DNA of 64,000 bases from Asterias amurensis (Eukaryota). The notes under the pieces are model-generated. The model was not told where the DNA came from. It searched no databases and saw only the letters and a list, made by a program, of their open reading frames with translations. This document shows positions 3,431 through 47,301 of the stretch, piece after piece. The position numbers and the translations under genes were made by a program. Each line of letters starts with the position of its first letter. Position 1 is the stretch's first letter. The stretch spans positions 27,235,339 to 27,299,338 of the forward strand of contig NC_092652.1 in NCBI RefSeq assembly GCF_032118995.1, in the 5' to 3' direction.

Positions 3431-5031
3431 ACCGAATATGTGTATAATGGCTTTAATGCACTTTCTAACGATAATCAGAGAGATATAAGATTTAAAATTT
3501 AAATAAAACAATCTTCAAAACTCAAAATCACACTGTAAGAAATGGATCTAACTTTCTTATATAATTTTATTTAAAATATATCTTAATGCTACAAAGTTTT
3601 AATAAACTGAAACAAAAGTCTGACCATCCCTATAAATTCTATGAAAAAAAAATGAAAAAAATCAATTGATCCAGTACCGATGTTAAAGAAAATCTTTATT
3701 GAAATTATTAAAGTTTTGAAGGTTGCATGTCTGAAGACGAAGATCAGTCATCCCTCAGACCTTCAGATCTTGGTCTTCCAGGGCTGGACTACAAAAATGT
3801 TTAACAGACTTCTCTCAATACATTAGAACTTTAGGTTTGAATTGAGTATTTTTTCTCAAGAGTTATACAAAATAAGACACAACCATTCAAAATCTTAAAG
3901 CTGCATATAGGCACTACCTGGATTTTTCAAAGCAGTGAAAATGCAAATGTTTTCATAATTATTTTAACCACCTCAAAACACCAGACCATCCCACAAACAT
4001 TTCCTGCATATAGTTACATGATAATTATTAAAACAAAATATTGCAAATATATATCTCAAACTGTCCTACTTACAATATATCTATACATTTCTAACATTGT
4101 TAAGTTCACATCTGATGTCTTTTTTATAATAAAACAAACATAAATAAATTCACAAATCTCCCACTCTTATTATTGGCTTCTACATACAGACGTCTTATCT
4201 AATTACCTGACTGATAATCACACTCAAACATAGTCATAACTATTATCATTATATTTTACCACAATCCTCTTGTAGATTTAGTAATCTTATAAATTTTGTT
4301 TAAAAAAAACTTTCAAGCCAAAAATAATTATATTTACAAACCAACTCCTTCTGAAAGCCTCAATATAAATTCTTAACTCTCTGTATGAAACACCATTGTT
4401 GAAGGGATGTTGAACAGTCACTTAAAATTGATGAACGAAAACACAATGTCTCGTTGTTATGGATACAAGCCTTTATATTTTGAGAAATAATCACTTAATA
4501 TTCAAATCAACCAAAAACTATTACTTACCGGTAATATTATTTCCAAACGAAATAGATTTCTTTTCTACATGAAAAGGTATGTCAGTTTGAAGTTATAAGA
4601 GTAGTTTAAGAAATGTTTGCAAGAAATAAAATGGTGAGAATGAATTTGCATATACTTTCTCTTCAGAAATTGCTATTTTAGTAACGTGCACAACTGAAGT
4701 AAAACTGACAAGGATTGTTATTTTCCAGTGGTGTACACTAAAGTATATAACACAATCACGGAAGCTATTCAAACTGGGCTTAATTTCATGGCTCTACTCC
4801 CCATAACCCCCTAATCAGCGCTTACAAAAGAAGAAATACTCAGTGCAGACATTTTTGCTAGTGGGCATGTTCAAATCACAATGCAAAACATTGTTTTCAT
4901 ACACAGCTAGTGCAGTAATTTGGTGCTTACACTATAAGCGGACAAAAGTGACTGTAAGCGCAGTAGTCCAATGTAAGCAGAGCCATGAATTTAGCCCTGG
5001 TGTCGTCACAATCCCTTAACTCTCACACTTA

Positions 5032-32100: not shown

Positions 32101-35100
32101 TTAGCATACAAAATTACTTGGTAACGAGCAATGGAGAGCTGTTGATAGTATAAAACATTGTGAGAAACTGCTCCCTCTGAAGTAACATAGTTTTTGAGAA
32201 CGAAGTAATTTCTCACTCAAATAATTAAAGACCTCGGCTGAAGCCTTTTATTATGCATCCAAAGCACACAAAGTAATGCAACAAGGGCGTTCTTCTTTCA
32301 TTATTCTCTTGCAACTGCGATGTCCAGTTGAGCTCAAACTTTCACAGGTTTGTTATTTTATGCATGTTGGGATACACCAAGTGAGAATAATTTTCTTTGA
32401 CAATTACCAAAGTGGATGTTGAATGGAACAAAACAAACAAAAGGAATTCTTAAGAGTTTAAATAAACTTGTCTGACCTATAAGTTGCTCCCAAGTAGTGG
32501 CTTTGTTTCCTGTTAAAGATATCTGTGTTTCCCAGGTCTCTGGTGTTGGTAGTCTCATTCTCTTGCCAGCACGGTCTGGGTCCCAAGTACCTGGGAGGCG
32601 TGTCTTGTAGAAAGACTCCAGATCTTCTGGGTACCTGGTTATTACCAAAGAAAGAGGGTCAAAACACATCCCACAAAAAAACACCAACAAAACCCACAAA
32701 AAACAGACATATAATGTGATTTGAGGCATTGCATGGTGTATGTTTAAAACTATCAAGCGCCAGTGTTTTTCAGCGGAGAAAGACAGTAAATTGTCAAAAT
32801 TGTCATGCGCTTTTGATTACTTTTGTGTGAAGGGTGTTGGAATGTAAATCAGAAATTATTTACAAATCATTATAATTATCTAAGAAAGTTTCCTTAAGGT
32901 AAACCTAAATCTGACTTATTGAAGAAGTAAATGAAGAAGGGAATCTAACTTTTTGCCAATGAGGCCCATGACACTCTCTACTGGTTCCATGATGTGTAGT
33001 TTTCTAATGAGCTGCTTAAGAGTGTAATGATCACATAGATCGACATCATCATCGCTATCAGCATGGATGTCATCTTCAGCTTCTTCCTTCTTAGCTCCAC
33101 CCGTCTCATCCTCACTCCCTCCTTCCTCACCATCCCCGTCTCCGTCTGCCTCCTCATCATTCTCCTGTTGTGGTTTCTTCTTTTTGATGTATTTCTTCTT
33201 AGATGCCTTCTTTTTTGTCTTGTTGTATTTGCCTGTGAGATGAGATTTAGGGAAGTAGGATTTTAAAACTTTGCATTTTGCAAGTATAACTAGAGAGGTT
33301 TGCAAGAACACTATGTTAAAATCTCTTTTTAGTATAGGTTCTGAAAGAAACGGTGGTTAACTATCGACTCAACATTTCAATCAGTATGCTCTGATCGTCT
33401 TCAGGAGAATGCTGAGTAACATTTTGAAGTGCACTGTTTTTGTTTTATAACCACAACTGATCAGCAGGATCAGCAAAATCTGGGGGTCAAATATTCAGCC
33501 CCCTTTCCTTCCTGATAAACGGCATCCCCATGTTTTCTTAGTAACAAACATAGATCATATTTGAATTTGGTTTGACACAGATGTACCAAACTTGGACCAA
33601 GCTTTCTTGGATTCTATTCTCTTACCCAACTGATAAGTATCAAAGTCAGGAAACTTCGCAACCATCACTTTACGAAGAGCAGAAGGTAGCGATTTATAGC
33701 TCAGGTTTTTGTCGTGGAATGTCTGCGGAGAAAAGAAAGTACAAAATCTTTTAATACCAATATGAAAAACTGTTCTAATTGTGTTGCACCTTCAGAGTTT
33801 TTAGAGAAGCATCGGCTAAAAACACCCTCTCGCTCAGCTGACTGACTGATGCAAGGAAATTTGCCACTGAAAGCACCCCATGAGGTAAAAAAATATGGTC
33901 AAATCAAACTTACAAGATACAAGTCAGCTACAGATGCCCAATCAGATGGGAGAACGATGGACTTCTGGAAGTATTTCTTCATGTAAGGTCGACATTCACG
34001 ATGATTGGCAGCCAGGGCCAGCAGAAAGTTGGCAGCAGTTCGGATGTTTAATTCACGTCGAGTATACAAAGCAACCTACGAAGGGGAAATATGGAAGAAA
34101 TAAGGGTTAATTTAGGATGAAGAAATGAACAAATATGATTTGGTTTCTCTCTCTCTTTAGCAACTTTAGGGTGGTCGGGTTGGCTTCTTCTTATCATGTC
34201 CACACACACTAGATATTGTGTTTCAGCCAGAACTGGACACAGCTCCTAGCAAAATCGTACTCTGCAAGGTCCTCAATTTTGCATTCTTGCTCCAGTAGGG
34301 GCCATCTCAGGAGGTGCTCCATAGTTTGTGGCTCTGTCTCACATATACAGGTTGGCGTAGAAGTGTCTTTTCTCATCTTCCACCTCTAGGACCCCTGTGC
34401 AAATCCTGCAGGGGGCATTATGTGGATTGGGTTTTCATTCCCTACCATCTCACTGCATGTTTTCCTCCTACGTACATCTAAAACTAACACTTCCGTCTTT
34501 GTCATCTCCAGAGTTCTTGGCTAATAGGTGATTAAGTTCACTTTTCTAAAAGTCCCTGGCTTCACAACCAGAATTAATAACTAATGTTATGCCTCATAGT
34601 TTTCAGTTCTTCTACAGTAAAGATAAGTATTTCTTCTAATGAATATTATCTCTTGAAGTTTTAGTAAACCCTTTGAACCAACCTTAAGGATGAATTCAGG
34701 ATCTGATAGGATGACTGGGTTGGCTTCTTTAATCAGAGCTGTTCTTGTTGCATCCTTTCTTGATTCAAGATGAGGACTGTGAATTAATGCCGAGCTGATC
34801 ATGTTTATAAAGGATCTCTAATCGATGAGAAGGAAAGGAAGAAACAACTTATTTACTTCATTGAATCATTAGAATAAAAGTGGAAAATGTTCAAATAATG
34901 TTTTTTTTTCATTTCAATCTAAAAAAGAGTTGGGCCTACACGCAGAACAAAATGCTTTAGGCCTAGGCCTATATATTTGAATGAAATAACATTCAAATAC
35001 ATTTTCTTTTTTAAGTTTGAAAATGTGAAATGAAAAAAAGGAATGGCGAAATTGTAAAAGATCTAGCCTTGTTTTAATATTAGATTTGGAAGGGGTGGTT

Positions 35101-37617
35101 TATGAACTTTTTATGACAATAATAATAATAATAATATCGAAGTCTTATATAGCGCACGTATCCACCAAACAAGGTGCTCAAGGCGCTGAGTATATATACA
35201 AACTTTCAGAAAGATAGGTTATTGCAGTGATGAATTCTGAGACCCAATTATTTAGCACCTTATAAGGGTTTACAAGGCGCTACGGCGCATTAAGCAGCCA
35301 CAACCAGGAACACCGGGGCGAACCCCTTCTCTTTTCGATAAGTGCACTGGGTTCTTTTACATGCGTTACACAACACATGGGACCAACGGCTTTACGTCCC
35401 TTCCGAAGGACGAAGCAATGGTTAAGTGTCTTGCTCAAGGACACAGTGTCACGGCTGGGGATGACATCAGGGACACAGTTCACTAACTTGAAAAAAATGT
35501 TGCTTAGCAAATGTTGTATTATACACTTTCAGGAGACACTTTTTGGGAGCCAGAGTTACAATATATCCCTTGGCATTTTGGCTGGTAGTTTGTCTTTCGC
35601 CTGCTTAGCAAATTTGAAGCTCTTTTCAAAGATTCCGCTTTGGCTGTGGCTTAGGTTGTGTCTGGCTATGGCTTAGGTTGTGTCTGGCTATGGCTTAGGT
35701 TGCGTGTGGCTATGGCTTAGGTTGTGTCTGGCTATGGCTTAGGTTGTGTCTGGCTATGGCTTAGGCTGTGTCTGGCTATGGCTTAGGTTGTGTCTGACTG
35801 TTTATATATGTACCAAACATTTCAAAGTAACTGAAGGAGCATAATATAAGCCTTTTAGCTGAACAGGCCCAATTTCATAAAGTCTGTGCGCATTAAAATT
35901 TGCTAAGCACAGACAAATTTTGCTTAACAAAAAACTGGTTACCAGCCGAAATTCCATAGAGTTTACATAAATGCAACTGGTGCCCCACTCATTTTATGCT
36001 TAGCAAAGAAAGTTGCCAAGTAGTATTTTTCGCTTAAAGCCATTGGACCCTTTCGGTACAGGAAAAAAAAAAAAAGTTCACAGATTTACAAATAATTTAC
36101 AGGGTTTACAGAAGGTAATGGTGAAAGACTTCTCTTGAAATATTAGTCCATGAAATGCTTTACTTTTTGAGAAAACGGTAAAACAATATAAATTCTCGTT
36201 AACGAGAATTACGGATTTGTTATAAACACATGTCATGACACGGCGAAACGCGCGAAAACAGGAGTGGGTTTTCCCGTTATTTTCTCCCGACTCCGATGTC
36301 CGATTGAGCCTAAATTTCCACAGGATTGTTATTTTATATATAAGTTGTGATACACGAAGTGTGGGACTTGGACAATAGTGTTTACCGAAAGTGTATAATG
36401 GCTTTAAACGAAATAGGACCATGTTGGTTTGGTTTGAACAAGATAAGGTGATTATTACACCATACATTGTAATCAAGTGTGTTGTAATGCATGCATCCAT
36501 GGTGAATCATCAAGCGCAAGGCCAGGCTAGTCTGTCACCCTGGACATCATAGCCTGGCATTACATGAATTATAGCCTGGCTACATATGAATTATAGCCTG
36601 GCTATCATACTAATGAATCAATGGCTGATGTAAGAGGTTGACACACAGCTCAAACTAGTGTACAATAAATGAATCATGGAGCAGAGCTTCTTGACAAATT
36701 ATTGTAGTTACTTCGATCGGGAGTAAAAATTAAAATTGTGAATGTTAAGATTTGTATTGGCAAAATTTATTAAATAAAAATGAACAAAAGTTTGGCTGAT
36801 CAACATAATATAAAAAGAAAAGTAACATTAGAGTTTTCAGCATGATCAATCCTGCTTATCAAATTTAAACAAGTGAAATAAAACAAAAGTGAACAAGTTT
36901 TCTCTGAAGATTTACCTTCTTTGAGTTGATATCTTCTGATGAAATCATCAACGACAACAATTCAGGATTTACAGTTTCAAATGAAGTCTCGTCATCCTGT
37001 CCCCAAAACTGATCATCTCTCTCTTTGACATCAAAATGAAAATCATAATCAGGAATTTCAAAGTTCCCCACTGTCTCATCAATAAGAACCTGTCTGTTCT
37101 CTGCAACAGCCTTCTTAGGGAGGTGAGAGGGTTGCTGAAACCCAGCTGGCTTGACTTGTCTTTGCTGGGAAGGCTTTATCAAGGTGTTAGTAACTGTAGG
37201 TTTCTTTAAGGAGCTAGAGCCAAGACTGGTCGACTGGTTGATGAGAGTAGACTTTGTGGAGAGGGTCGTTTTGTAAGAGCCTCCTTGAAGACTGCTGGTT
37301 TTAGACGTGCTGAGCAAAGAGGATGTGAGAGGTGTCAACTTGGATCCAAGAAGGAGTCGATTACTCTGAAGGCTGAGAGATTCTTGCTTCAGATTTAGCG
37401 AAACTGGCTTGAAGCTTGAGTAAGACCCTGTCGCATTCTTATCCTTGGAAGGGGCATTCCTTGATCCAATCTGAGTAGATTTACTGCTCACTGACTGTAG
37501 GAGAGGATTAACTAATGAAGAAGAGAGCCGAGGGCCTGAGGTGAGGCTACCAATGCAGCTCTGTCTTGATGACGTCAGAAGAGGGTTGTCTAAACGTGAC
37601 TTGAGTTCAGTCTTCAT
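5032..37617 (-). CDS. TEP1: TEP1 (telomerase-associated / vault protein 1) orthologue, whole-gene span with about 47 coding exons. Domain order: N-terminal low-complexity region, TROVE, vWA-like, DUF4062, NACHT, WD40 array
   Basis: Multiple exons give strong collinear matches to human TEP1. Examples: [31 protein letters not shown] vs [26 protein letters not shown]; DUF4062, [34 protein letters not shown] vs [34 protein letters not shown]; NACHT P-loop, [15 protein letters not shown] vs SLVTGQSGQGKTAFL; C-terminus, [15 protein letters not shown] vs LAVGDVQGNVYFLNWE*. Splice phases are consistent across all exon junctions except E8/E9. Confidence 0.85.
5306..5410 (-). CDS. TEP1: TEP1 exon 46 (WD40)
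   Basis: [35 protein letters not shown] vs human VTALHVLPELLVTASKDRDVKLWERPSMQ. Acceptor tttctag|, donor CAG|GTAATG. Confidence 0.7.
5641..5871 (-). CDS. TEP1: TEP1 exon 45 (WD40)
   Basis: [77 protein letters not shown]. Acceptor ttttag|, donor AAG|GTAGGT. Confidence 0.6.
6540..6920. mobile_element. copy of the about 380-bp MITE/SINE-like repeat family (see 32040..32420)
   Basis: Sequence identity by eye across most of its length to 32040..32420. Confidence 0.6.
7230..7905. repeat. 24-bp satellite-like tandem array, about 27 units (consensus ggtaagcattgattctttgcttac), in a TEP1 intron
   Basis: Direct reading. Perfect 24-bp periodicity creates spurious long ORFs on both strands (7484..7909 minus, 7488..8120 plus). 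Confidence 0.9.
7991..8116 (-). CDS. TEP1: TEP1 exon 44 (WD40)
   Basis: [42 protein letters not shown]. Acceptor ccatcag|, donor AGA|GTACAG. Anchored to the stop codon of the plus-strand ORF at 8118..8120. Confidence 0.55.
8532..8613 (-). CDS. TEP1: TEP1 exon 43
   Basis: (R)[27 protein letters not shown]. Acceptor tttttgaag|, donor AAG|GTAACC. Confidence 0.5.
9395..9785. repeat. long imperfect palindrome / foldback element with about 190-bp arms and a perfect 42-bp palindromic core at about 9567..9608
   Basis: Core ggccatttatgggagtcaaaaatttgactcccataaatggcc. The outer arms are reverse complements, for example aaaggaacacgttgccttggatcg and cgatccaaggcaacatgttccttt. Confidence 0.8.
10100..10191 (-). 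CDS. TEP1: TEP1 exon 42 (WD40)
   Basis: [30 protein letters not shown]. Acceptor ttaatag|, donor AG|GTAAGC. The phase links exon 41 (phase 0) to exon 43 (1-nt start). Confidence 0.5.
10270..10510 (+). mobile_element. tRNA-derived SINE (tRNA-like head gggttggtgtagtggtatc..ggacccgcgttcaaatccc, A-rich tail)
   Basis: tRNA-like A/B-box head. The body ..tctctggggttttctcccc..gattaagttcagaattaataaataaataaa.. is shared with copies at 16540..16760 and 34330..34590. Confidence 0.6.
10900..11019 (-). CDS. TEP1: TEP1 exon 41 (WD40)
   Basis: [40 protein letters not shown]. Acceptor ttttttag|, donor AAG|GTAAGA. Confidence 0.6.
11326..11513 (-). CDS. TEP1: TEP1 exon 40
   Basis: (D)[62 protein letters not shown]. 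Acceptor ttgtacag|, donor CAG|GTAAAT. Confidence 0.55.
11860..11998 (-). CDS. TEP1: TEP1 exon 39 (WD40)
   Basis: [46 protein letters not shown](G). Compare human SSDGSVGLWDPESGQRLGQFLGHQSAVSAV.. and GTLKVWDHQGVELTSIPAHSGPISHC. Acceptor aaacag|, donor G|GTAGAA. Confidence 0.65.
12500..12607 (-). CDS. TEP1: TEP1 exon 38 (WD40)
   Basis: [36 protein letters not shown]. Donor AGT|GTGAGT. Confidence 0.6.
13387..13515 (-). CDS. TEP1: TEP1 exon 37 (WD40)
   Basis: [43 protein letters not shown]. Acceptor ccatag|, donor TTG|GTAAGA. Confidence 0.55.
13933..14035 (-). CDS. TEP1: TEP1 exon 36 (WD40)
   Basis: (S)[34 protein letters not shown]. Acceptor cttccag|, donor ATG|GTAAAC. Confidence 0.55.
14253..14419 (-). 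CDS. TEP1: TEP1 exon 35 (WD40)
   Basis: [55 protein letters not shown]. Acceptor ttattccag|, donor AAAAG|GTAAAT. Confidence 0.6.
14759..15022 (-). CDS. TEP1: TEP1 exon 34 (WD40)
   Basis: [88 protein letters not shown] vs human VQVWSGSLGRPRGHLGSLSLSPALSVALSPDGDRVAVGYRADGIRIYKI... Donor GAG|GTTAGT. Confidence 0.7.
15638..15736 (-). CDS. TEP1: TEP1 exon 33 (WD40)
   Basis: [33 protein letters not shown]. Acceptor ctgcgcag|, donor AAG|GTATGG. Confidence 0.6.
15880..16190. repeat. about 80-bp tandem repeat, 3 to 4 copies, each headed by a G7-G11 run
   Basis: Unit (g)n cagattggtagctgtattggtcattccttacacagctagcgcagtcattcggggcttgcaaattcagtcgtgaatgt repeated at about 15895, 15975 and 16075. A related fragment lies at 4880..4990. 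Confidence 0.8.
16321..16440 (-). CDS. TEP1: TEP1 exon 32 (WD40)
   Basis: [40 protein letters not shown]. Acceptor ttcag|, donor CAG|GTATGT. Phase 0-0. Confidence 0.6.
16540..16760 (+). mobile_element. SINE copy (same family as 10270..10510), partially 5'-truncated
   Basis: Shared body ..attctctggggttttcttccc..ctggcttcacaatcagaataaataaatgaaa. Confidence 0.5.
16793..17012 (-). CDS. TEP1: TEP1 exon 31 (WD40)
   Basis: ..[63 protein letters not shown] vs ..[46 protein letters not shown]. Confidence 0.75.
17150..17258 (-). CDS. TEP1: TEP1 exon 30 (WD40); 5' boundary approximate
   Basis: (A)[35 protein letters not shown](R). Donor AG|GTACAT. Confidence 0.45.
17733..17802 (-). CDS. TEP1: TEP1 exon 29 (WD40)
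   Basis: [23 protein letters not shown](G). Acceptor cgtag|, donor G|GTAAGA. Phase links to exon 30. Confidence 0.45.
18207..18302 (-). CDS. TEP1: TEP1 exon 28 (WD40)
   Basis: [32 protein letters not shown] vs AVAFSTNGQRAAVGTANGTVYLLDLRTWQ. Acceptor ttccag|, donor AAG|GTGGGT. Additional small exon(s) may lie between 18302 and 18901. Confidence 0.55.
18901..19122 (-). CDS. TEP1: TEP1 exon 27
   Basis: [45 protein letters not shown].. vs ..FLRQQASILSQYPRLLPQQAANQPLDSPLCHQ. Acceptor tatttacag|, donor CAG|GTTGGT. Confidence 0.6.
19398..19455. repeat. 15-bp microsatellite-like tandem repeat (cataataatattgat x4)
   Basis: Direct reading. Confidence 0.8.
19501..19781 (-). CDS. TEP1: TEP1 exon 26 (3' end ambiguous between 19507 and 19501)
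   Basis: (G)[67 protein letters not shown].. vs ..EALGDLPYHLLQSGNRGLLSKFLTNLHVVAAHLELGLVSRLLEAHALYASS. The LPYHL motif is conserved. Confidence 0.6.
20034..20146 (-). CDS. TEP1: TEP1 exon 25
   Basis: (S)[38 protein letters not shown] vs ..RTAAKRCYGKRPGLEDTAHILIAAQ. Acceptor tctacag|, donor G|GTAAGG. Confidence 0.55.
21101..21371 (-). CDS. TEP1: TEP1 exon 24
   Basis: (E)[89 protein letters not shown]. Phase-consistent with exons 23 and 25. Donor AG|GTGAGA. Confidence 0.55.
21592..21724 (-). CDS. TEP1: TEP1 exon 23
   Basis: [45 protein letters not shown] vs VSERLRTLPATVPLLLQHILSTLEKEHGPDVLPQALTALEV. Confidence 0.65.
22260..22352 (-). CDS. TEP1: TEP1 exon 22
   Basis: [31 protein letters not shown] vs MRLLLVKRESGRPLYLRLVTDHLRLFTLYEQ. 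Donor CAA|GTATGT. Confidence 0.75.
22693..22869 (-). CDS. TEP1: TEP1 exon 21
   Basis: [59 protein letters not shown] vs CVHLVLSVSSDAGLGETLEQSQGAHVLALGPLEASARARLVREELALYGKRLEESPFNNQ. Confidence 0.75.
23090..23230 (-). mobile_element. short interspersed repeat with tRNA-like end (gatttgaacccacgacctttgcaatt); second copy at 24410..24640
   Basis: ccatgtgtgttagcactatatactc..gatttgaacccacgaccttt.. occurs at both loci, both in TEP1 introns. Confidence 0.5.
23250..23400 (-). CDS. TEP1: TEP1 exon 20 (NACHT Walker B region)
   Basis: (N)[50 protein letters not shown] vs SLVWELQQRLLPKSAESLHPGQTQVLIIDGADRLVDQNGQLISDWIPKKLPR. Confidence 0.65.
23642..23817 (-). CDS. TEP1: TEP1 exon 19 (NACHT)
   Basis: [58 protein letters not shown] vs SLVSALQAPDGAKVAPLVFFHFSGARPDQGLALTLLRRLCTYLRGQLKEP. 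Confidence 0.65.
24162..24344 (-). CDS. TEP1: TEP1 exon 18 (NACHT Walker A / P-loop)
   Basis: [61 protein letters not shown]. The GKSGCGKT motif is the Walker A P-loop. Donor ATG|GTTAGT. Confidence 0.75.
24410..24640 (-). mobile_element. second copy of the interspersed repeat seen at 23090..23230
   Basis: ccccacaccgatgtgtgttagcactgtatactc..ggattcagacccacgacctttaccattc..ccccgatgcaaatttaacacc. Confidence 0.5.
25026..25146 (-). CDS. TEP1: TEP1 exon 17
   Basis: (G)[40 protein letters not shown] vs [38 protein letters not shown]. Confidence 0.7.
25590..25715. repeat. 42-bp tandem triplication; each unit carries a consensus splice donor (reverse complement GG|GTAAGTTCC) at the 3' end of TEP1 exon 16
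   Basis: Units ggaacttacccatcaa[a/t][g/a][a/t]acttctagtccactgcctttaag at about 25592, 25634 and 25676. The copy at the highest coordinate supplies the exon 16 donor. Confidence 0.8.
25677..25790 (-). CDS. TEP1: TEP1 exon 16 (3' end lies inside a 42-bp tandem repeat)
   Basis: (K)[38 protein letters not shown] vs [36 protein letters not shown]. Donor GG|GTAAGT is present in each repeat unit. Confidence 0.55.
26290..26532 (-). CDS. TEP1: TEP1 exon 15 (DUF4062 C-terminal part)
   Basis: [70 protein letters not shown] vs [69 protein letters not shown]. Confidence 0.75.
26986..27162 (-). CDS. TEP1: TEP1 exon 14 (DUF4062 N-terminal part)
   Basis: (R)[58 protein letters not shown](R) vs [59 protein letters not shown]. 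Confidence 0.8.
27754..27830 (-). CDS. TEP1: TEP1 exon 13
   Basis: [25 protein letters not shown] vs IPPPPGKTGVQSLRPLEEDTPSPLAPVSQQGW. Acceptor ttttttag|, donor AG|GTCAGA. Confidence 0.55.
28169..28313 (-). CDS. TEP1: TEP1 exon 12
   Basis: (S)[48 protein letters not shown] vs STDLNPNDVTLSGCTDAILKFIAEHGASHLLEHVGQMDKIFKI. Acceptor cttacag|, donor CAG|GTAGGA. Confidence 0.65.
28540..28810 (-). mobile_element. tRNA-derived SINE, reverse orientation (..ggtattccaacccacactctgtgaataac..)
   Basis: The reverse complement shows a tRNA-like head. Related reverse-orientation fragments lie at 19290..19390 (ggtattcaaacccacactctgctgattag), 31480..31590 and 48640..48800. Confidence 0.45.
29034..29275 (-). 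CDS. TEP1: TEP1 exon 11
   Basis: [80 protein letters not shown]. This corresponds to human ..VPVDRVILLGQSMDDGM... Donor AG|GTAAGA. Confidence 0.65.
29651..29803 (-). CDS. TEP1: TEP1 exon 10
   Basis: [51 protein letters not shown] vs ALLLIGMMITRAEQVDVVLCGGDTLKTAVLKAEEGILKTAIKLQAQVQ. Acceptor tatttacag|, donor CAG|GTAAAT. Confidence 0.7.
30349..30546 (-). CDS. TEP1: TEP1 exon 9 (vWA-like part of TROVE module); 5' boundary uncertain
   Basis: [47 protein letters not shown] vs KYDGEMLNRYRQALETAVNLSVKHSLPLLPGRTVLVYLTDANAD. Donor GAAAAG|GTTTGT. The phase mismatch with exon 8 implies an undetected small exon between 30550 and 31085. Confidence 0.5.
31086..31227 (-). CDS. TEP1: TEP1 exon 8 candidate (Arg-Gly-rich insert)
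   Basis: Phase-compatible with exon 7 (2-nt start). Encodes [47 protein letters not shown]. Acceptor ..gtgcaaag|, donor AAA|GTAAGT. No human counterpart for the RGG run, so confidence is lower. Confidence 0.4.
31731..31937 (-). CDS. TEP1: TEP1 exon 7 (TROVE)
   Basis: (D)[68 protein letters not shown] vs human [65 protein letters not shown]. Confidence 0.75.
32040..32420. mobile_element. about 380-bp MITE/SINE-like interspersed repeat (tttaaaggcactggacactattggtaattactcaaaataatt...cacttggtgtatcccaacat). Other copies: 6540..6920, 24770..24990, 25230..25350, 27290..27660, 41640..42020, 22900..23050
   Basis: Copies in both orientations share blocks (ggtaattactcaaaa, agcaatggagagctgttgatagtataaaacattgtgagaaa, ctcacttggtgt.tcccaa). 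Repeat-derived ORFs [13 protein letters not shown] / [14 protein letters not shown] recur at 6793..7224 and 32358..32756. Confidence 0.6.
32477..32634 (-). CDS. TEP1: TEP1 exon 6 (TROVE)
   Basis: (K)[52 protein letters not shown] vs YPSNLQLFSRSRLPGPWDSSRAGKRMKLSRPETWERELSLRGNKASVWEELI. Confidence 0.75.
32950..33232 (-). CDS. TEP1: TEP1 exon 5 (basic/acidic low-complexity, then [13 protein letters not shown]..)
   Basis: (G)[34 protein letters not shown] vs KYNPRKHRAKRH..RFTLKKLVQRLHIHKPAQHVQALLGYR. Coordinates anchored to the ORF track. Confidence 0.65.
33626..33722 (-). CDS. TEP1: TEP1 exon 4
   Basis: [33 protein letters not shown] vs KNKLVPLPACLRTAMTDKFAQFDEYQLAK. Acceptor ccgcag|, donor G|GTAAGA. 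Confidence 0.65.
33914..34075 (-). CDS. TEP1: TEP1 exon 3
   Basis: [54 protein letters not shown] vs ASLYARQQLNVRNVANNILAIAAFLPACRPHLRRYFCAIVQLPSDWIQVAELYQ. Acceptor cgtag|, donor CTT|GTAAGT. Confidence 0.7.
34330..34590 (+). mobile_element. SINE copy (same family as 10270..10510)
   Basis: ..ctaggacccctgtgcaaatcctgcagggg..ggctaataggtgattaagttcac..ctggcttcacaaccagaattaataactaatg. Confidence 0.5.
34683..34817 (-). CDS. TEP1: TEP1 exon 2
   Basis: ..[14 protein letters not shown] vs human ..ELALLEPEFILK. Acceptor cgattag|AGA, donor AAG|GTTGGT. Confidence 0.55.
35100..35520. repeat. interspersed repeat family (aataataataat..gtcttatatagcgcacgtat..caaggcgctgagt..caaactttcagaaagataggttattgcag); related copies at 22400..22570, 21900..22060 and 19130..19215
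   Basis: Shared blocks visible by eye. Confidence 0.5.
35640..35805. repeat. 22-bp tandem repeat, about 8 units (ggcttaggttgtgtctggctat)
   Basis: Direct reading. Confidence 0.85.
36050..36430 (+). repeat. about 380-bp interspersed repeat with internal palindrome ctcgttaacgagaat; other copies at 3040..3430 (minus) and 46150..46520 (plus)
   Basis: Shared: aaagttcacagatttacaaataa.ttacagggtttac.gaag..atggtga.agacttc.cttgaaatatta..ccatgaa...ctcg.ta.cgagaat..aacacatgtcatgaca.ggcgaaa.g.gc..aaaca.g.g...ttttcc.gttattttctcccgactccgatg.ccgattg. Repeat-derived ORFs at 3054..3254 and 36078..36500. Confidence 0.7.
36916..37617 (-). CDS. TEP1: TEP1 exon 1 (start codon; S/T/L-rich low-complexity N-terminus)
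   Basis: ORF-track ATG at 37617; donor AAG|GTAAAT after ..SSEDINSKK. 234 codons. No vertebrate-type 30-aa N-terminal repeats are present. Confidence 0.6.
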
Positions 37618-39049
37618 GATGTCTTAGTTCCTGAATGATCAATAATATACAATTAATAACATAAAAACGCATATCCTGCCATCACTTTTTCATTTGTTAT
37701 GACATAAATAAGTATCTAATTTACTCAAATATATTGGTAAAAATGAGTGATAAGTGGTGGCAGGATACGGTTATCTTTCCCTTAACTCTAGTCTTGTCAT
37801 TTTTTTTTTACAGCACAAGTCGCCGCTACTTGGCTATGTTACGTACGTGCAGACCCTCAGCCTCATGCTGTAAGCTTCTAGTTAAAATGTTATTTTTTTC
37901 AAAGATTTACTTAAATTTATAAGTAACTTATTGCTGTGCTGGATCTGTTCAGTGAAACTTGCGGCACCAGTCATCAAATGGGTTGAAATTGTAATGTAAG
38001 AAAAATTAAGCCATTTGATCCATAATATAAAAGTATATCAATAACTTCTCATCAAAGTTCAATCTCATCATCTTTGATGTTGATTAAAAACAGATTAATA
38101 AAAAACCTTCTTACCAAAGATCTTTACTCTTACATCATCTTTACATCATCTTGTATATCATTAACATCTCTCTTACCCTCAACTCAATTAGGACTCACTT
38201 GACTGTGAAGAAGAAGAAGTACACAACTTCCCACAACCTACTAGCTACGCTACGCCCCTCTCTCTCTTTGATTTTGAGGCTGGTACGTTTTGGTAGTGGT
38301 GGTGTCCGTTTTTATTAGGCTGACCATTGATGTCATAGATGTTTTTCAACGTAGTTCAGAACATTCTAGTTTATCACCCCGATCTCAGCACCATACTTGG
38401 ACGATACAAACTGCTAACTTCTAATTTCTTCTTACTATTTATTGCAAACTATTGCACCATCACTTCCTTGGTTGCCCACATACCCCTGGAACCAAAACAC
38501 ACAATTCCTACACTAGGAAATTCTATCGCACAAACAGCTATTTTAATGCGCAATAAATCACGGCGACAGAGCTTCCTAGTCAGGCTTGTTAAGATACGAC
38601 GACTGTTGCAAAACTATTTATATTTTGTTATTTGTGTTCGTATTATGATTCAGTACAAAATAAAGATAAAAAAGACCAATGTGACCAGCCGCAATGTGAC
38701 TTATTTTTCTTAATAGTTTATTTCAATGTGTTTTTGAATTTATTAATTGAACAAAAAAACTCTTTTGCAAATAAAACCCCTACTATTTTCATGCAACAGC
38801 CGTCAATAAAATTTAAAGTCTAAACTCCAAACGTAAAGTGGTAGTTTTAGGTTCACCTCGGTATAGGTACCAAACTACTCTTGTCTTTACACAAAACTTG
38901 GTCTAAAAGAAAACTACACGCACAAAACAACAAAGCTGAAAGCAAATTTGCAAAGGTAAGCTATTTTCAACTTTTAATGAGAGAAAATTCAGGCATATTT
39001 CTATTGTGCAATCTTGTGAAAGAATTCTCCTTAATGTTGTTATACAATA

Positions 39050-39700
39050 CAACACAAGTAATATAGGAGGTCCTGTTTTCAAGAAGGTGTCCCTAAAAAT
39101 AAAAATCGTGGCAAATCTTTTACCTCTCGTCTCTGTAGTGCGCGAGTGGGGCTATGCGCGATGTAAACGGGTCAGTCCCTCCGATCCTACGTTCCTATAG
39201 AGTAGATACCAAAAAGTTGGTTTTATTTGCTAAGCAAAGAGTCTCCTCTCCCTCGACCAAAACTTAGAAACACGTAAGGCTCCACTGGTTATTTACACTT
39301 GTATTGTAAATGCAAAAAGTTTGGTATTTTAGGCATTTCTATCGTAGTAGGAGGTCCTGTTTTGGTGTCCCTAAAATCGTGGCAAATCTTTTACCTCTCT
39401 GTGCACGATGTAAACAGTCCCGAGAAACATTGGATAACTTTCCGTATGGCGCCACCACCTTTTCACTCATTTTTACAAAAAGGGATATATCAATCAGGTA
39501 AATTAGATACTATATTATTTTATTTCGAATGAAAAAGTGGTGGCGCCATACGGAAACTTTTCCGAAACATTTTTTGGGGTTTTATTTGCCAAGCAAAGAG
39601 TCTCCTCTTTGACCAAAACTTAGAAACACATAAGGCTCCACTGGTTATTTGCACTTGTAAATGCAAAAAGTTTGGTGTTTTAGGAATTTCTACAACTACA
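39050..39700. repeat. about 300-bp segment duplicated in tandem, each copy containing a foldback core, between TEP1 and RAMAC
   Basis: ggaggtcctgtttt..gtccctaaaa..cgtggcaaatcttttacctct.. and ..gctaagcaaagagtctcctct..ccaaaacttagaaacac[g/a]taaggctccactggttatttacacttgta..aatgcaaaaagtttggt[a/g]ttttagg are repeated at about 39060 and 39340, and at about 39225 and 39590. Confidence 0.6.
39433..39562. mobile_element. foldback MITE-like element with terminal inverted repeats ccgtatggcgccaccac(c)tttt; a second copy lies at 59806..59933
   Basis: 39433 ccgtatggcgccaccaccttttcactcatttttacaaaaaggg...gaatgaaaaagtggtggcgccatacgg. The same TIRs and core occur at 59806..59933 in a DCLK intron. Confidence 0.7.
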
Positions 39701-40221
39701 AGGTACAAAAATATGTCACAATAAGGTTTATCGCGATTCAGAAACGCAATGCATTGTGGGAAGGAATATGGGGCGGTTTCTATGCAGTTTCTACGACTCG
39801 CGCATGCAACACCTATACCTTTGTGGGTTCAACAGCGCCCTCACTTGATATTTTGCTGTTCGCGATAAAACTTATGTTGAGGCCATATTAAAAAAATATA
39901 TATATATATGAAATTGGGCCCTGGGACATAATATATTTACAAAAGAGGATCGACAATAGGTGAACTTCCTGGCCGGTTAGTGTAGGTTCTCAAAACCAAT
40001 GGGAGCTGTTATGTTGCCAAAAAGTACAAACAAAAGAGCTAACAGTAGGATTTGAGGTTTCAGATTGAAGGTGTTGGCGCACATGCTTTGGTGTGTGAAT
40101 GTGAACCATACATTTTTGTTGTCACCTTTTTTATTCGGAAAACAACAACAAATAGTGGTTTGTTTTAGTGACTCTGTCTTGTTTTTGACGAAATTGGTGA
40201 CATATTTATTCAAATTGGGCA

Positions 40222-40436
40222 TTACCTTAATTAAAATGGAAATAACATTTCATTGTCCTTCTTTCAGGTCATAACGCTGGAGTCTTATGTTTTAGATATC
40301 AGATCAAAGTAATGCATCCCACCATGGATTCTGCAGGGGTTAATTAAAATGGAAATAACATTTCATTGTCCTTCTTTCAGGTCATAACGCTGGAGTCTTA
40401 TGTTTTAGATATCAGATCAAAGTAATGCATCCCACC
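40222..40436 (+). repeat. tandem duplication (2 x about 105 bp) of the RAMAC exon-1 acceptor/start region, creating an upstream ATG and a 7-codon uORF
   Basis: ttaattaaaatggaaataacatttcattgtccttctttcag|gtcataacgctggagtcttatgttttagatatcagatcaaagtaatgcatcccaccatggattctgcagggg occurs twice. Copy 1 reads ATGGATTCTGCAGGGGTTAATTAA (MDSAGVN*). Confidence 0.8.
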
Positions 40437-40660
40437 ATGGATTCTGCAGGGGACAAAACACCTACAGATGTTAGCACAGAAAAAGTATCTGCTGAAAACC
40501 CAACAAGTTCAGATATAGTCCAAAACTATCAGGAGATGTTTTCATCTAGGTACAGTGACGAAGATACATTCTACGAACCCTATAAAAACAAAGGAATGGA
40601 CCCCCCACCCATCATGGAAAACTACTTCATCAGACAACAAAAGAGAAGCTGGAATGACAG
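40437..40660 (+). CDS. RAMAC: RAMAC (RNMT-activating mini protein, FAM103A1-like) exon 1
   Basis: Kozak caccATGG. MDSAGDKTPTDVSTEKVSAENPTSSDIVQNYQEMFSSRYSDEDTFYEPYKNKGMDPPPIMENYFIRQQKRSWND matches the RAMAC N-terminal RNMT-activation motif [32 protein letters not shown]. Donor AG|GTTTGT. Confidence 0.6.
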
Positions 40661-41022
40661 GTTTGTTGTTAACTAAGAGAGGTTTGCTGTAGCAGTGTGT
40701 GAACATCTCTTTGTAATTAGTGTTACTGAAAAGAACCAGTGGTTAACAACTGCTCAAAAGAGATATTAGTGGTGTTACAGCTATTCACATAATCTTAACC
40801 ATGTATCCTTGAATCAAGCAAAGGTTGCATTATTAATTTCTTTGGATGAAGTAACTTTCCCAATGTTGTGTATTCAGAACACTGATGACCAAAGTCTAAA
40901 TGCAATTTTGTGCAGTTTTTATAAGAATTGAGTTTTGTATTAAATTTGTGAACAACTCAAAGCATTAAGGATATTAAAGATTAATTAAGTGTATTTATAA
41001 TTATTCTCTTTTGTTGCCATAG

Positions 41023-41377
41023 TTACCGGGATCAAAGAAATAACCAAGACAGAGGTTACGGTCCTTCAAAGAGGCCACATTACGATCATGGAGGTCAACA
41101 TGGAGGTCATCATGGAGGTCACCATCGTGAGAGGGACAGTGGATGGGGTCAACAGGGTCGTTATCAACAATGGGGTCATTCTTCTCATAATCAAGACTGG
41201 AGACAGCGAGATAGACAAGGTCAAGGGTCACAACCCCAAAGAGGTCAACGAGACAGATACTCTGATGGTCGCCATGATAGATGGTCTAATGAGAGACCGA
41301 ATGAAAGACAGCAAGACACTCAGCATCGGTCACAAGGCCGTAACTCCAGTCACAAAACACATGATGAATGGACTTGA
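41023..41377 (+). CDS. RAMAC: RAMAC exon 2 (Arg/Gly/Gln/His-rich RNA-binding tail), ending in a stop codon
   Basis: Acceptor ttgttgccatag|. Encodes (S)YRDQRNNQDRGYGPSKRPHYDHGGQHGGHHGGHHRERDSGWGQQGRYQQWGHSSHNQDWRQRDRQGQGSQPQRGQRDRYSDGRHDRWSNERPNERQQDTQHRSQGRNSSHKTHDEWT*. Composition matches the RAMAC C-terminal RNA-binding domain. Confidence 0.55.
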
Positions 41378-41639
41378 TTTCAGATTAATAGTCCAGCTGC
41401 TTAAGCACAAAAAGTTACTAAGCATAAAGTAATTATGCTTACTAGGATAAGATTACCAGCCAAAATACCATTTTGCATGTTCCATTTATGACTGGTATAC
41501 TATCATTTCTGCTTAGCAGAACATTGTTAACAATATTTTCTGCTTAAAGACACTGGCCACCTTTGGTTATTGTCAAAGATCAGTCTGCTTAGCAGAACAT
41601 TATAAAGCAATATTTCCTGCTTAAAGACACAGGACACCT

Positions 41640-42020
41640 TTGGTAATTTTCGAAGATCTGTTTTCTCACTTGGTGTATCTCAACATTATATATGCACAAA
41701 CTAACAAACCTGTAAAAATTTGTGAACTCAATTGGTCGTGGGAGTTGTGAGATAACAATGGAAGAATAACACCCTTGTCACACTAAGTTGTGTGCTTTCA
41801 TATGTTCGATTTCGAGACCTCAAATTCTAAACTTGAGGTCTCAAAATCAAGTTCAAATATTCAAGTGGAAAATGACTTCTTACTTGAAAACTACGTTACT
41901 TCAGAGGGAGCCGTTCCTCACAAAGTTGTATACTATCAACAGCTCCCCATTACTTTGTTACCAAGCAAGTGTTTGCGCTAACAATTATTTTGAGTAATTA
42001 CCAATAGTGTCCAGTGCCTT
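41640..42020. mobile_element. copy of the about 380-bp MITE/SINE-like repeat family, opposite orientation
   Basis: ..ctcacttggtgtatctcaacat.. ...ccaatagtgtccagtgcctttaag. Confidence 0.55.
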
Positions 42021-42945
42021 TAAGTAGCTCTATGAAATTGGATCCAGGAATAAACCATTTGGTTTCAGGGGAGGCTGTGTCCAGCTCAATGGCTATGGCT
42101 GTGGCTGTTGCTAAAGCGATGCTGCTGTAGCCACACCCAAAGCTGTTAATTTGGACACGGCCTAAAGTTAGATTTGAATGATGCCTTACTTTGTCTCATG
42201 TGATGCTCAATTTGAATTTCTCAGACTATTGCTATGTCGCATTGTTAGCTGTAAGCTTTCGTAACCTGTGGAACACCCCACAAATTCACACTTAGTAGTT
42301 AATAACTATTTGTATTCAAATATTTTCATTTTTGTATCATCTATTTTAGTATCAGCTCAAACAAACGGGGAAAAAACTTCAGTTGTCTGGCAAATTTCGT
42401 AATGCCTGTTCAGCTGTTTAAATGCTTCACACCCGAGCCCTTGTTTGCAAATCCCTGGGGCCTTTGTTTACAAATCCCCGAAGCATTTTGTCATTGCATT
42501 TGTTTGGGGTGCTTTAAAGTCTAATGATGGATAATGATGTAGCAATGTTTAGTCTGACGAATTCAACTGTAGCATATACCAGTGAACAGACAAGTCATTG
42601 CACCAGGCGTTATTAAAATATAACTTGCAAATGGCTAATAACATGAAGTATTATCACACTGAATCGGTGTCATACAGGTAGTCTGAAAGCAACACAAAGA
42701 ACGTTTTTTTTTTTTTTTCTTTTTTGGAGAGGGTGGGGTTACAAAGGATTTTTTGTTGAATACTGTAGTGAAAGTATACTTTTTCCATGTGAGTGTTCTT
42801 AATTTTAAATACCAAAAAAATCAACCACAAGGGAAACTGATTTGGTAAAATTATTAATTTTTGGGGGTTGAACAAAGAGAAATTTACTAGAGGGAATTGA
42901 ACCGTCGACCTCTGGACAACTGTATTGGTGTGATGGTTTCAGTCT

Positions 42946-43082
42946 TCCGCCGTGTTCAGTTTTTCGGGACTCAATACAGCATAACAATTGACTACTTTCG
43001 CTTGCTGTGTGCAGGCGTCGCATGACGTACTGTTACCGTATTTGGTCATTCCGAAAACTGAACACAACGGAAAGTTGAAACC
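42946..43082. repeat. hairpin-forming inverted repeat (about 35-bp arms, about 65-bp spacer)
   Basis: ggtttcagtcttccgccgtgttcagtttttcggga ... tccgaaaactgaacacaacggaaagttgaaacc. Confidence 0.6.
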
Positions 43083-46772: not shown

Positions 46773-47301
46773 ATGGGACGCGTTCGTAAGAACTCAGCAA
46801 GACGTATGAACACCAACGCCAACGACACCCTTCTTGCCTACCCCTTCAACAACTCAGATGTCCCCCCAGCCCCAGCAGCAAGAGCTCGCAAGAAACTTGT
46901 TCAAGCTCAAGAGGACAACACCATGCTGGTGGCTAGTCGCAATTCGGATGTCAGTGTCTCGCAACAGCATAAAGACATCACAGAGGAACAATATCAAGAC
47001 TTGCGCAGACCGAGGCAGCTTCTCTTCTACAGGAATGGCGACCGTTACTTCCGGGGGAAACGGTTACGGATAACTCCAAATCGATTCCAGACGTTTGAAA
47101 CCCTCTTGAGTGAGTTAACGAAACACATGTCCCTCCCTTATGGAGTGAGAAAGATTTATCAACCAGACACTGGTGTATCAATCACGGATATCGAGAACTT
47201 GAAAGACGGAGAATCGTACGTTTGTGCATCCTTTGAGAAATTTAAGAAGATGAACTACGGTGCTAATAAGTCAACTCCTGGTTGGGCAACTGGTCATGCA
47301 A
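46773..47301 (+). CDS. DCLK: doublecortin-like kinase (DCLK) coding exon 1: start codon plus first doublecortin (DCX) domain
   Basis: [89 protein letters not shown] vs human DCLK1 [92 protein letters not shown]. Kozak aattATGG. Donor A|GTAAGT. Confidence 0.8.

What the first reader, a model, noticed from the sequence alone, without database searches (positions are those of the whole stretch)
40222..41377. RAMAC (RNMT-activating mini protein) gene with a tandemly duplicated acceptor/start region that creates an upstream ATG and uORF
A compact two-exon gene encodes the conserved N-terminal RNMT-activation motif (QEMFSSRYSDEDTFYEPYKNK..PPPIMENY) followed by an R/G/Q/H-rich tail, which fits RAMAC/FAM103A1. 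The acceptor plus first 74 nt of the coding exon (including the Kozak ATG) is duplicated in tandem (40222..40327 and 40328..40436). The upstream copy contributes an out-of-context ATG and a 7-codon uORF (MDSAGVN*) and a second acceptor, which could give translational down-regulation or alternative 5' ends.
Basis: partly seen in the sequence, partly recalled or inferred. Interest (0 to 1): 0.5.

Follow-up and report, generated by a model that had tools for sequence, protein, structure and literature searches.

The report
Starfish RAMAC gene with duplicated start
This is the starfish (Asterias amurensis) version of RAMAC, the small activator of the mRNA cap methyltransferase, and it carries a very young, perfect 113-base tandem duplication over the splice acceptor and start codon that leaves the protein unchanged and can at most add short upstream reading frames to the messenger's leader.

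Summary
It covers 41 nt of intron (branch-point candidates, pyrimidine tract, AG) plus the first 72 nt of the coding exon.

The spliced product (40437-40660 + 41023-41377, 192 aa) is identical to RefSeq "uncharacterized protein" XP_071787889/90 of Asterias amurensis. RefSeq starts four codons earlier, at MHPT.

The gene belongs to the RAM/RAMAC family:
- The exon-2 product scores 36.3 bits on Pfam PF15320 (cut-off 25).
- The best outside hits are RAMACs of Patiria miniata, Diadema and vertebrates.
- All 12 hydrophobic RNMT-contact residues of human RAM are identical or conservatively replaced.

Six Asterias rubens sequences, P. miniata and another asteroid contig each hold one copy. The duplication is therefore lineage-specific and young.

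The unit length is 3n+2, so the upstream copy cannot extend the protein. It is either intronic (downstream acceptor used) or a 113-nt leader insert carrying uORFs (MHPTMDSAGVN*/MDSAGVN*, MEITFHCPSFRS*, MF*). No RNA or read data were reachable, so acceptor usage and allele status are untested.

Verdict: an ordinary small structural variant in a known gene family. Side point: echinoderm RAM contradicts published "vertebrate-only" statements.

The parts
38878..38955 (+). Putative non-coding first exon (3' part; its start/TSS is unknown), ending at the donor AAAG|GTAAGC (38955|38956)
   Evidence: This stretch is homologous to the first exon of A. rubens isoform X1 (L001 10528-10596), which is spliced to the same acceptor. 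The A. rubens ATG is TTG here, so the exon is non-coding in this species. CpG o/e is raised across 38200-39500. Its use in A. amurensis is inferred, not shown.
40227..40339 (+). Upstream copy of the 113-nt tandem duplication: 41 nt of intron (branch-point candidates TAAC at 40243 and TTCAT at 40249, pyrimidine tract, AG at 40266-40267) plus 72 nt of exon start
   Evidence: TRF shows 100% identity. String equality was checked directly. A. rubens has no counterpart of a second copy.
40340..40452 (+). Downstream copy of the duplication, continuous with the rest of the coding exon. Its acceptor AG is at 40379-40380 and it holds the genuine start codons at 40425 and 40437
   Evidence: This is the only copy whose reading frame runs on into the RAM domain.
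40312..40347 (+). uORF MHPTMDSAGVN*, with the nested MDSAGVN* from 40324 (context CCCACCATGG). The stop TAA is created at the duplication junction. It is present in mRNA only if the upstream acceptor is used
40349..40387 (+). Second potential uORF MEITFHCPSFRS* (context AAAATGG), made of former intron sequence of copy 2. It is present only in the long leader
40400..40408 (+). Native two-codon mini-uORF ATG TTT TAG in the ordinary 5' leader (weak context). It is duplicated at 40287-40295
   Evidence: The sequence is identical in A. rubens and absent in P. miniata.
40425..40660 (+). Coding part of exon 2 (start at 40425 as in RefSeq, or at 40437). It encodes the RAM RNMT-activation domain, and its donor is ACAG|GTTTGT
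   Evidence: Pfam RAM scores 36.2-36.3 bits against a cut-off of 25. It matches PDB 5E8J_C. The spliced product is identical to XP_071787889/90.
40661..41022 (+). Intron 2 (GT...AG, phase 2)
   Evidence: The junction is confirmed by the RefSeq protein.
41023..41377 (+). Last coding exon. It encodes an R/Q/G/H/S/D/N-rich tail (these seven residues make up 80% of it; net charge +6) and the stop TGA at 41375-41377. It contains a 12-nt × 3.2 repeat at 41087-41125 (HGGQ/HGGH)
41378..42054 (+). Probable 3' UTR up to the first AATAAA (42049-42054). It includes a 77-nt × 2 repeat at 41508-41658
   Evidence: The AATAAA position is. The stretch is 92-97% identical to A. rubens up to about 41800. The repeat is also present in A. 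rubens. The UTR extent is inferred.

Best explanation
The locus is the Asterias amurensis orthologue of RAMAC (RAM/FAM103A1), the small activating subunit of the mRNA cap N7-methyltransferase RNMT.

Gene layout: at least one non-coding first exon (donor at 38955), exon 2 (acceptor, short leader, two in-frame ATGs at 40425 and 40437, RAM activation domain) and exon 3 (basic low-complexity tail).

After the split from A. rubens, a 113-bp segment spanning the intron-1/exon-2 boundary was duplicated head to tail, with no microhomology at the junction. The downstream copy is continuous with the ORF and keeps the ancestral function.

The upstream copy is a complete, sequence-identical 3' splice site with the start codons attached. 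Because 113 = 3n+2, its ORF stops after 7 or 11 codons, at a TAA formed at the junction.

Two mRNAs are therefore possible, and both give the same protein:
- Exon 1 joined to 40381: the ancestral mRNA, with the upstream copy left in the intron.
- Exon 1 joined to 40268: a leader 113 nt longer, carrying a strong-context uORF. Translation of RAMAC would then need reinitiation about 77-89 nt downstream, and the mRNA could be exposed to nonsense-mediated decay.

The most likely status is a recent, neutral to mildly deleterious structural variant, possibly polymorphic. It may lower RAMAC output from that allele but is not an evolved regulatory device.

Shown here: the duplication, its borders, its absence in relatives, the gene family, and the ORF consequences. 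Inferred: exon 1 usage in this species, which acceptor is used, the translational and NMD effects, and that the variant exists in the animal rather than only in the assembly.
For: Duplication: it is perfect, 113 × 2, and the only one of its kind in the window.

Species and gene model: the spliced product is identical to A. amurensis XP_071787889/90.

Family:
- PF15320 at 36.3 bits against a cut-off of 25 on the exon-2 product.
- 5E8J_C RAM at E = 6.9e-4.
- Top library hits are RAMAC of P. miniata, Diadema, lizards, lungfish and fish, all PF15320.
- Of the 12 hydrophobic contact residues listed in PMC5137418, 7 are identical and 5 conservative.

Single copy in relatives: the A. rubens reference and five further A. 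rubens contigs that are 98.5-99.8% identical to it, plus P. miniata and another asteroid contig.

Timing: both copies share the A. amurensis-specific substitutions relative to A. rubens, so the duplication post-dates the split. Zero differences in 113 nt gives a 95% upper bound of 2.65% divergence, against about 7% between the two species at this locus.

The acceptor is genuine: two A. rubens isoforms join different first exons at exactly cag|GTCATAAC. The same layout, an acceptor 50-60 nt upstream of M-x-P-x-M-D, occurs in P. miniata and in L008.

Both acceptors carry their own branch-point candidates within the duplicated 41 nt.

The published A. amurensis assembly GCA_032118995.1 is HiFi/hifiasm-based (PMC10625585). 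A 226-bp artefact would be unusual in such data.
Against: No independent A. amurensis sequence or transcript could be reached:
- Exact-product look-ups found nothing.
- Metagenome scans for the junction and for a control sequence were both empty.

So neither the reality of the duplication in the animal nor the choice of acceptor is shown.

Perfect identity of the two copies is also what an assembly error would give. It is not established that the window comes from the HiFi assembly.

The full-length protein falls just under the Pfam cut-off (23.4 against 25 bits), and RefSeq calls it 'uncharacterized'.

The tail lacks the C-terminal PY motif of human RAM. RAM is described as essential in mammalian cells (established knowledge), so a variant that strongly reduced it should not persist. 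This argues either for weak use of the upstream acceptor or for efficient reinitiation.
Confidence: 0.62

Rival explanations
1. The duplication is real but silent. Only the downstream (ancestral) acceptor at 40380|40381 is used, perhaps because exon definition with the donor at 40660 favours it. The upstream copy is then simply 113 extra bases of intron 1, and no uORF ever reaches the mRNA.
For: The RefSeq product starts at MHPT and is unchanged. RAM is essential in mammals (established knowledge), so a silent outcome is the easiest to tolerate. The downstream copy alone retains the ancestral exon context.
Against: The upstream acceptor is identical over -41 to +72, including the branch-point candidates and the pyrimidine tract. 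It is also transcribed first. Nothing in the sequence disfavours it. RefSeq lists two transcripts with the same protein, which is compatible with two leaders, although alternative first exons would also explain that.
Confidence: 0.25
2. Assembly or consensus artefact. The animal has one copy, and the second 113 bp arose during assembly, polishing or haplotype merging.
For: The copies are 100% identical with exactly 2.0 units. There is no independent A. amurensis sequence to confirm it. All eight related sequences have one copy.
Against: The published RefSeq-linked assembly is built from ~15-kb HiFi reads with hifiasm (PMC10625585). Such reads span a 226-bp repeat many times over. No other such duplication occurs in the 64-kb window. 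The clean junction inside unique sequence is typical of real small tandem duplications.
Confidence: 0.1
3. Evolved regulatory switch. The duplication is fixed in A. amurensis and selected. Regulated choice between two identical acceptors includes or skips a uORF-bearing leader. This tunes RAMAC translation, and so cap-methylation capacity, for instance between oocyte, embryo and adult tissues.
For: The upstream ATG has optimal context and a junction-made stop. Two RefSeq transcripts encode one protein. RAM level is a known control point of cap methylation in mammalian differentiation (PMC4977272, listed).
Against: There is no conservation: the duplication is absent in A. rubens (six haplotypes), P. 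miniata and L008. Zero divergence between copies implies it is very recent. No expression data exist. The arrangement is what any random duplication across this boundary would give.
Confidence: 0.05
4. The gene is not a RAMAC homologue, and the N-terminal similarity is a chance match of a short motif in a low-complexity protein.
For: The full-length score is below the Pfam cut-off. RefSeq labels it 'uncharacterized'. The literature states that RAM is vertebrate-only (PMC5137418).
Against: The domain-only score is 36.3 bits, E = 8.5e-9. The library search gives E = 7e-15 to 4e-13 to named RAMACs. All hits tested carry PF15320. The contact residues are conserved. NCBI already names the P. miniata orthologue as RNMT activating subunit-like.
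Confidence: 0.03

Closest known systems
Human RAMAC / RAM / FAM103A1 (RNMT-activating mini protein; Pfam PF15320; structure 5E8J chain C)
   Same: The N-terminal activation domain aligns over human residues 5-43. V8, F15, Y26, Y29, P37, P38 and I39 are identical. A7, F11, F19, V40 and W43 are conservatively replaced, by I, Y, Y, M and Y. The domain is followed by a basic, low-complexity tail rich in R/Q/G. It is a small protein whose activation domain sits on one exon.
   Different: The starfish protein is 192-196 aa against 118 aa (human length from memory). It has a 20-30-residue N-terminal extension and a His/Gly-rich tail that cannot be aligned with the human RNA-binding domain. It has no C-terminal PY-type nuclear import motif and ends in ...HDEWT, as the P. 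miniata protein does. Activity on RNMT is untested. The literature describes RAM and the RNMT lobe as vertebrate inventions (PMC5137418, PMC12599247).
Asterias rubens LOC117287798 (XP_033624208/9) and Patiria miniata 'RNA guanine-N7 methyltransferase activating subunit-like' (XP_038058299)
   Same: These are orthologues: 93% identity with A. rubens and 43-48% with P. miniata. Synteny with A. rubens is the same, with a TEP1-like TROVE/NACHT/WD40 gene upstream on the minus strand and a DCX-kinase gene downstream. Exon layout is the same, and the same acceptor lies just upstream of the tandem ATGs.
   Different: They carry one copy of the 113-bp segment. The 233-aa A. rubens models extend the ORF into alternative first exons whose ATGs are not conserved in A. 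amurensis: X1's ATG is TTG here, and X2's donor GT is AC here.
uORF-bearing leaders and competing tandem 3' splice sites (general mechanisms of translational and splicing control)
   Same: A strong-context upstream ATG with a short ORF ahead of the main start. Two competing acceptors give leaders of different length but the same protein.
   Different: Known regulatory uORFs are usually conserved among related species. This one is created by a species-specific, undiverged duplication, and its presence in mRNA is unproven.

Membership tests
RAM / RAMAC (Pfam PF15320) | Match to the PF15320 profile above its gathering score | tested here: met
   The exon-2 product (74 or 78 aa) scores 36.3 / 36.2 bits against a cut-off of 25, E = 8.5e-9, over profile positions 1-36. 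The full-length protein scores only 23.4-23.6 bits, dragged down by the biased tail. The A. rubens exon products carry precomputed PF15320 hits.
RAM / RAMAC (Pfam PF15320) | Closest relatives outside the genus are recognised RAMAC proteins | tested here: met
   phmmer against 1.84 billion representatives: P. miniata RNMT activating subunit-like at E = 3.8e-13, lizard RAMAC at 6.9e-15, and lungfish, fish and Diadema. All ten tested hits are PF15320 above the cut-off. A profile search returns only PF15320 proteins.
RAM / RAMAC (Pfam PF15320) | RNMT-contacting hydrophobic residues of the activation domain (human A7, V8, F11, F15, F19, Y26, Y29, P37, P38, I39, V40, W43; PMC5137418) | tested here: met
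   In the HMMER alignment to 5E8J_C, 7 of the 12 are identical and 5 conservative (I, Y, Y, M, Y).
RAM / RAMAC (Pfam PF15320) | Acidic segment (human residues 35-45) that docks in the basic groove of RNMT | tested here: inconclusive
   The starfish sequence DPPPIMENY has two acidic residues (D55, E61). The human sequence ESPPIVEEW has three. The PPI core is kept.
RAM / RAMAC (Pfam PF15320) | Central Arg-rich RNA-binding domain | tested here: inconclusive
   The 118-aa tail has 19 R, 18 Q, 17 G and 13 H, with net charge +6. It does not align with the human domain, and RNA binding cannot be tested.
RAM / RAMAC (Pfam PF15320) | [quoted passage not shown] | tested here: not met
   The only P-Y dipeptide lies inside the activation domain, at position 52 of the 196-aa form. 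The tail ends in ...HKTHDEWT. The asteroid orthologue P. miniata ends in the same ...EWT.
RAM / RAMAC (Pfam PF15320) | Binds and activates RNMT; the partner RNMT carries the 'lobe' | not testable with these tools
   This needs biochemistry. The starfish RNMT gene is not in the window and was not retrieved.
Regulatory uORF / alternative-acceptor leader | The uORF is present in mature mRNA (the upstream acceptor is used) | not testable with these tools
   No A. amurensis transcript or read data could be reached.
Regulatory uORF / alternative-acceptor leader | Upstream ATG in a context that captures scanning ribosomes | tested here: met
   The context CCCACCATGG is identical to that of the main start.
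Regulatory uORF / alternative-acceptor leader | Conservation of the arrangement in related species | tested here: not met
   Single copy in six A. rubens sequences, P. miniata and L008.

The most novel reading that the evidence does not exclude
The duplication is a fixed, A. amurensis-specific gain of a splicing-coupled translational switch. Choice between two identical acceptors decides whether a strong-context uORF (plus NMD exposure) precedes the RAMAC start, setting the level of the RNMT activator and so global cap methylation in particular tissues or stages. Alongside this, echinoderm RAM would show that the RAM-RNMT activation module predates vertebrates, contrary to current reviews.
Probability: 0.06. 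Interest if true: 0.5.

Novelty: new member of a known kind. Interest (0 to 1): 0.22.

Why it matters
The duplication is a textbook-type small structural variant. Its only practical importance is for annotation: which ATG and which acceptor to use, and why RefSeq lists two transcripts for one protein. It could also serve as a natural test case for competition between two identical 3' splice sites, and for uORF and NMD effects on an essential dosage-sensitive gene.

The gene identity has somewhat wider interest. Structural papers and a 2025 review (PMC5137418, PMC12599247) state that RAM, and the RNMT lobe it stabilises, are vertebrate innovations. Starfish and sea urchins nevertheless encode a clear PF15320 activation domain with the RNMT-contact residues preserved. 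Databases already hint at this, since NCBI names the Patiria protein accordingly, so it is not a discovery. It does make 'when did RNMT become RAM-dependent?' directly testable in echinoderms.

Tried and rejected
Look-ups of the RefSeq 196-aa product and of the two exon-2 read-through ORFs found no contigs, so no independent A. amurensis DNA or cDNA was obtained.
2. JGI metagenome contigs were scanned for the duplication junction and for a control sequence shared by both Asterias species. Both gave zero hits, so the negative result is uninformative.
3. The first word-indexed protein search found only the Asterias cluster. The full HMMER library search was needed to reach other RAMACs.
4. A literature search for RAMAC/FAM103A1 in echinoderms gave only false matches such as the author name 'Ramachandra'.
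5. An Rfam scan of 37000-43000 found nothing in or near the duplication, only sub-threshold hairpin matches at 39430-39565.
6. I considered a productive N-terminal extension from the upstream copy and rejected it. 113 = 3n+2, and every candidate GT inside copy 1 (40282, 40289, 40309, 40339) is either a weak donor or leads to a stop.
7. I considered that the A. rubens 233-aa N-terminal extensions are real coding sequence and rejected it for this species. The X1 ATG is TTG here, with frame-changing indels, and the X2 donor is lost.
8. Transposon-mediated origin (the TTAATTAA at the unit start resembles a piggyBac target) has no support. There are no terminal repeats or element sequence, and the unit is unique in the window.

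Full report
**1. What is in the sequence**

Tandem Repeats Finder reports one array at 40227-40452: period 113, 2.0 copies, 100% matches, no indels. A direct comparison shows that 40227-40339 and 40340-40452 are the same 113-nt string. The bases flanking the array do not extend the repeat. The base before copy 1 is C where the unit ends in G, and the base after copy 2 is A where the unit starts with T. The junction therefore has no microhomology.

The 41-nt intronic part of the unit occurs exactly twice in the window, against none in 100 shuffles. No other perfect long-period duplication exists in the 64 kb.

Each unit holds:
- 41 nt of intron, with TAAC and TTCAT branch-point candidates, a pyrimidine tract and the AG.
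- 72 nt of exon: a short leader with a two-codon ATG-TTT-TAG, two in-frame ATGs 12 nt apart (AAAGTAATGC and CCCACCATGG), and the codons up to GGG G.

**2. The gene**

Joining 40437-40660 to 41023-41377 gives a 192-aa product. The product with four more N-terminal residues (MHPT, ATG at 40425) is identical to RefSeq XP_071787889.1 and XP_071787890.1, 'uncharacterized protein [Asterias amurensis]'. This identifies the organism and confirms the coding splice junction.

The A. rubens orthologue (LOC117287798) is 93% identical.

Flanking genes are the same in both species. A TROVE/NACHT/WD40 (TEP1-like) gene lies upstream on the minus strand, and a doublecortin-kinase gene lies downstream on the plus strand.

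**3. Family**

- The whole protein scores 23.4 bits on Pfam RAM (PF15320), just under the 25-bit cut-off. The exon-2 product alone scores 36.3 bits, E = 8.5e-9. The biased tail costs score, which probably explains the RefSeq label.
- The protein matches the crystallised activation domain of human RAM (5E8J chain C) at E = 6.9e-4.
- A filter-only HMMER search of 1.84 billion representative proteins with the 74-aa exon product gives, after Asterias itself, RAMAC proteins of a lizard (6.9e-15), Patiria miniata (3.8e-13; NCBI name 'RNA guanine-N7 methyltransferase activating subunit-like'), lungfish, fishes and the sea urchin Diadema. All ten hits tested pass PF15320.
- A profile of eleven activation domains recovers only PF15320 proteins.
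- Varshney et al. (PMC5137418) list twelve hydrophobic RAM residues that contact RNMT. In the alignment, seven are identical in the starfish protein (V8, F15, Y26, Y29, P37, P38, I39). Five are conservative: A7→I, F11→Y, F19→Y, V40→M, W43→Y.
- The tail is R/Q/G/H-rich and basic, like the human RNA-binding region in composition only. There is no C-terminal PY motif.

I file the gene as a RAM-family member. Its activity on RNMT is inferred.

**4. Gene structure upstream**

Both A. rubens isoforms join different first exons (L001 10001-10069 and 10528-10596) to exactly the acceptor cag|GTCATAAC, so the acceptor inside the duplicated unit is genuine.

In the window, the X1-type exon is recognisable at 38878-38955 with its donor AAAG|GTAAGC intact. 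Its ATG is TTG here and indels change the frame. The X2-type donor GT is AC. The long N-terminal extensions of the A. rubens models are thus not conserved, and the upstream exon is best read as non-coding.

P. miniata and an unidentified asteroid contig (L008) show the same arrangement. An acceptor lies 50-60 nt upstream of tandem starts M-H/Y-P-T/A-M-D. The first of the two ATGs is therefore probably the ancestral start.

**5. Comparative test of the duplication**

Both window copies align to one A. rubens segment, L001 12229-12339. Five further contigs from ENA metagenomes are 98.5-99.8% identical to the A. rubens reference, so they are A. rubens alleles. Each also has one copy. P. miniata and L008 have one copy.

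Both window copies share the A. amurensis-specific substitutions, so the duplication post-dates the species split. Zero differences in 113 nt puts a 95% upper bound of 2.65% on copy divergence, against about 7% between the species at this locus.

**6. Consequences**

The unit length is 3n+2.

- If the downstream acceptor (40380|40381) is used, the mRNA is ancestral and the upstream copy is intronic.
- If the upstream acceptor (40267|40268) is used, the leader is 113 nt longer. It carries, in order, MF*, the 11/7-codon uORF in optimal context, MEITFHCPSFRS* (starting 1 nt after the previous stop) and MF* again. The main starts lie 77 and 89 nt after the uORF stop.

From established knowledge of scanning and reinitiation, such a leader would lower but not abolish translation. 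A uORF stop upstream of the exon 2/3 junction could also expose the mRNA to NMD.

The two acceptors are identical from -41 to +72, branch-point candidates included, so the sequence gives no reason to prefer either. Which one is used is not known. RefSeq has two transcripts for one protein. That is compatible with two leaders but equally with alternative first exons.

**7. Is it real?**

No independent A. amurensis data could be reached. The published assembly that RefSeq annotates (GCA_032118995.1) was built with hifiasm from ~15-kb HiFi reads (PMC10625585), where a 226-bp artefact would be unusual. I put about 0.1 on an artefact. The reads (SRR24902114) and RNA-seq (SRR24871501) would settle both open points.

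**8. Comparison with what is known, and verdict**

The gene is an orthologue of a known family and is already in RefSeq. The duplication is a young, lineage-specific small tandem duplication across an intron/exon boundary, an ordinary class of variant. Its possible effect through a uORF leader is a known mechanism. Lack of conservation speaks against an evolved regulator.

The one point a specialist might find notable is incidental. RAM is described in the literature as vertebrate-only and co-evolved with the RNMT lobe (PMC5137418, PMC12599247). Asteroids and echinoids nevertheless clearly encode the activation domain.

Overall interest is low: a new member of a known kind.

Noticed in passing
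window 40425-40660, with P0007 (Patiria miniata), P0017/P0021 (Diadema) and P0001 (A. rubens): Echinoderms encode a clear RAM (PF15320) activation domain with the RNMT-contact residues preserved. Structural papers and a 2025 review state that RAM and the RNMT lobe are vertebrate-specific (PMC5137418, PMC12599247). NCBI's automatic name for the Patiria protein already reflects the homology.
   Followed up: partly
window 39425-39570 (intron 1): A ~135-nt near-perfect hairpin element: arms 39432-39468 and 39527-39563 are 89% complementary, with MFE -54 kcal/mol and z = -9.2. Several copies occur in both orientations in the A. rubens locus (L001 9388-9686 and 10998-11135). Its only Rfam matches are far sub-threshold hits to MITE-derived plant miRNA families. 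It is most likely a MITE-like dispersed repeat.
   Followed up: partly
window 41508-41658 (probable 3' UTR); L001 13489-13639: A 77-nt × 2 tandem repeat (88% matches), conserved in position in A. rubens. Related sequence occurs elsewhere in the A. rubens locus (L001 about 3827-4198), suggesting part of a dispersed repeat family sitting in the 3' UTR.
   Followed up: no
window 38339-38411 vs L001 10001-10069; window 38878-38955 vs L001 10528-10596: The N-terminal extensions of the two 233-aa A. rubens RefSeq isoforms are not conserved in A. amurensis: the ATG is TTG with indels in one, and the donor GT is AC in the other. They are probably longest-ORF artefacts of 5' UTR exons rather than real coding sequence.
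   Followed up: partly
window 40425 vs L001 ~12312; L002/L003: The first of the two tandem start codons (MHPT/MLPT) is ATG in A. amurensis, P. miniata and two A. rubens metagenome alleles, but ACG in the A. rubens reference. The start codon is therefore polymorphic within A. rubens.
   Followed up: partly
window 32358-37617 (minus strand) and 46773-47327 (plus strand): The neighbouring genes are a TEP1-like gene (a TROVE domain exon at 32919-33311, with a likely first coding exon at 36865-37617) and a doublecortin-domain kinase (DCX domain exon at 46773-47327). The synteny matches A. rubens. The TEP1-like start and RAMAC exon 1 are about 1.3 kb apart in divergent orientation, with raised CpG o/e, possibly a shared promoter region.
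   Followed up: no
window 7362-7902, 15895-16093, 25587-25707, 35641-35796: Several minisatellites: 24 nt × 22.6, 86 nt × 2.3 starting with a G10 run, 41 nt × 3 and 22 nt × 7.1. The 22-nt array is shared with A. rubens (L001 7694-7764).
   Followed up: no
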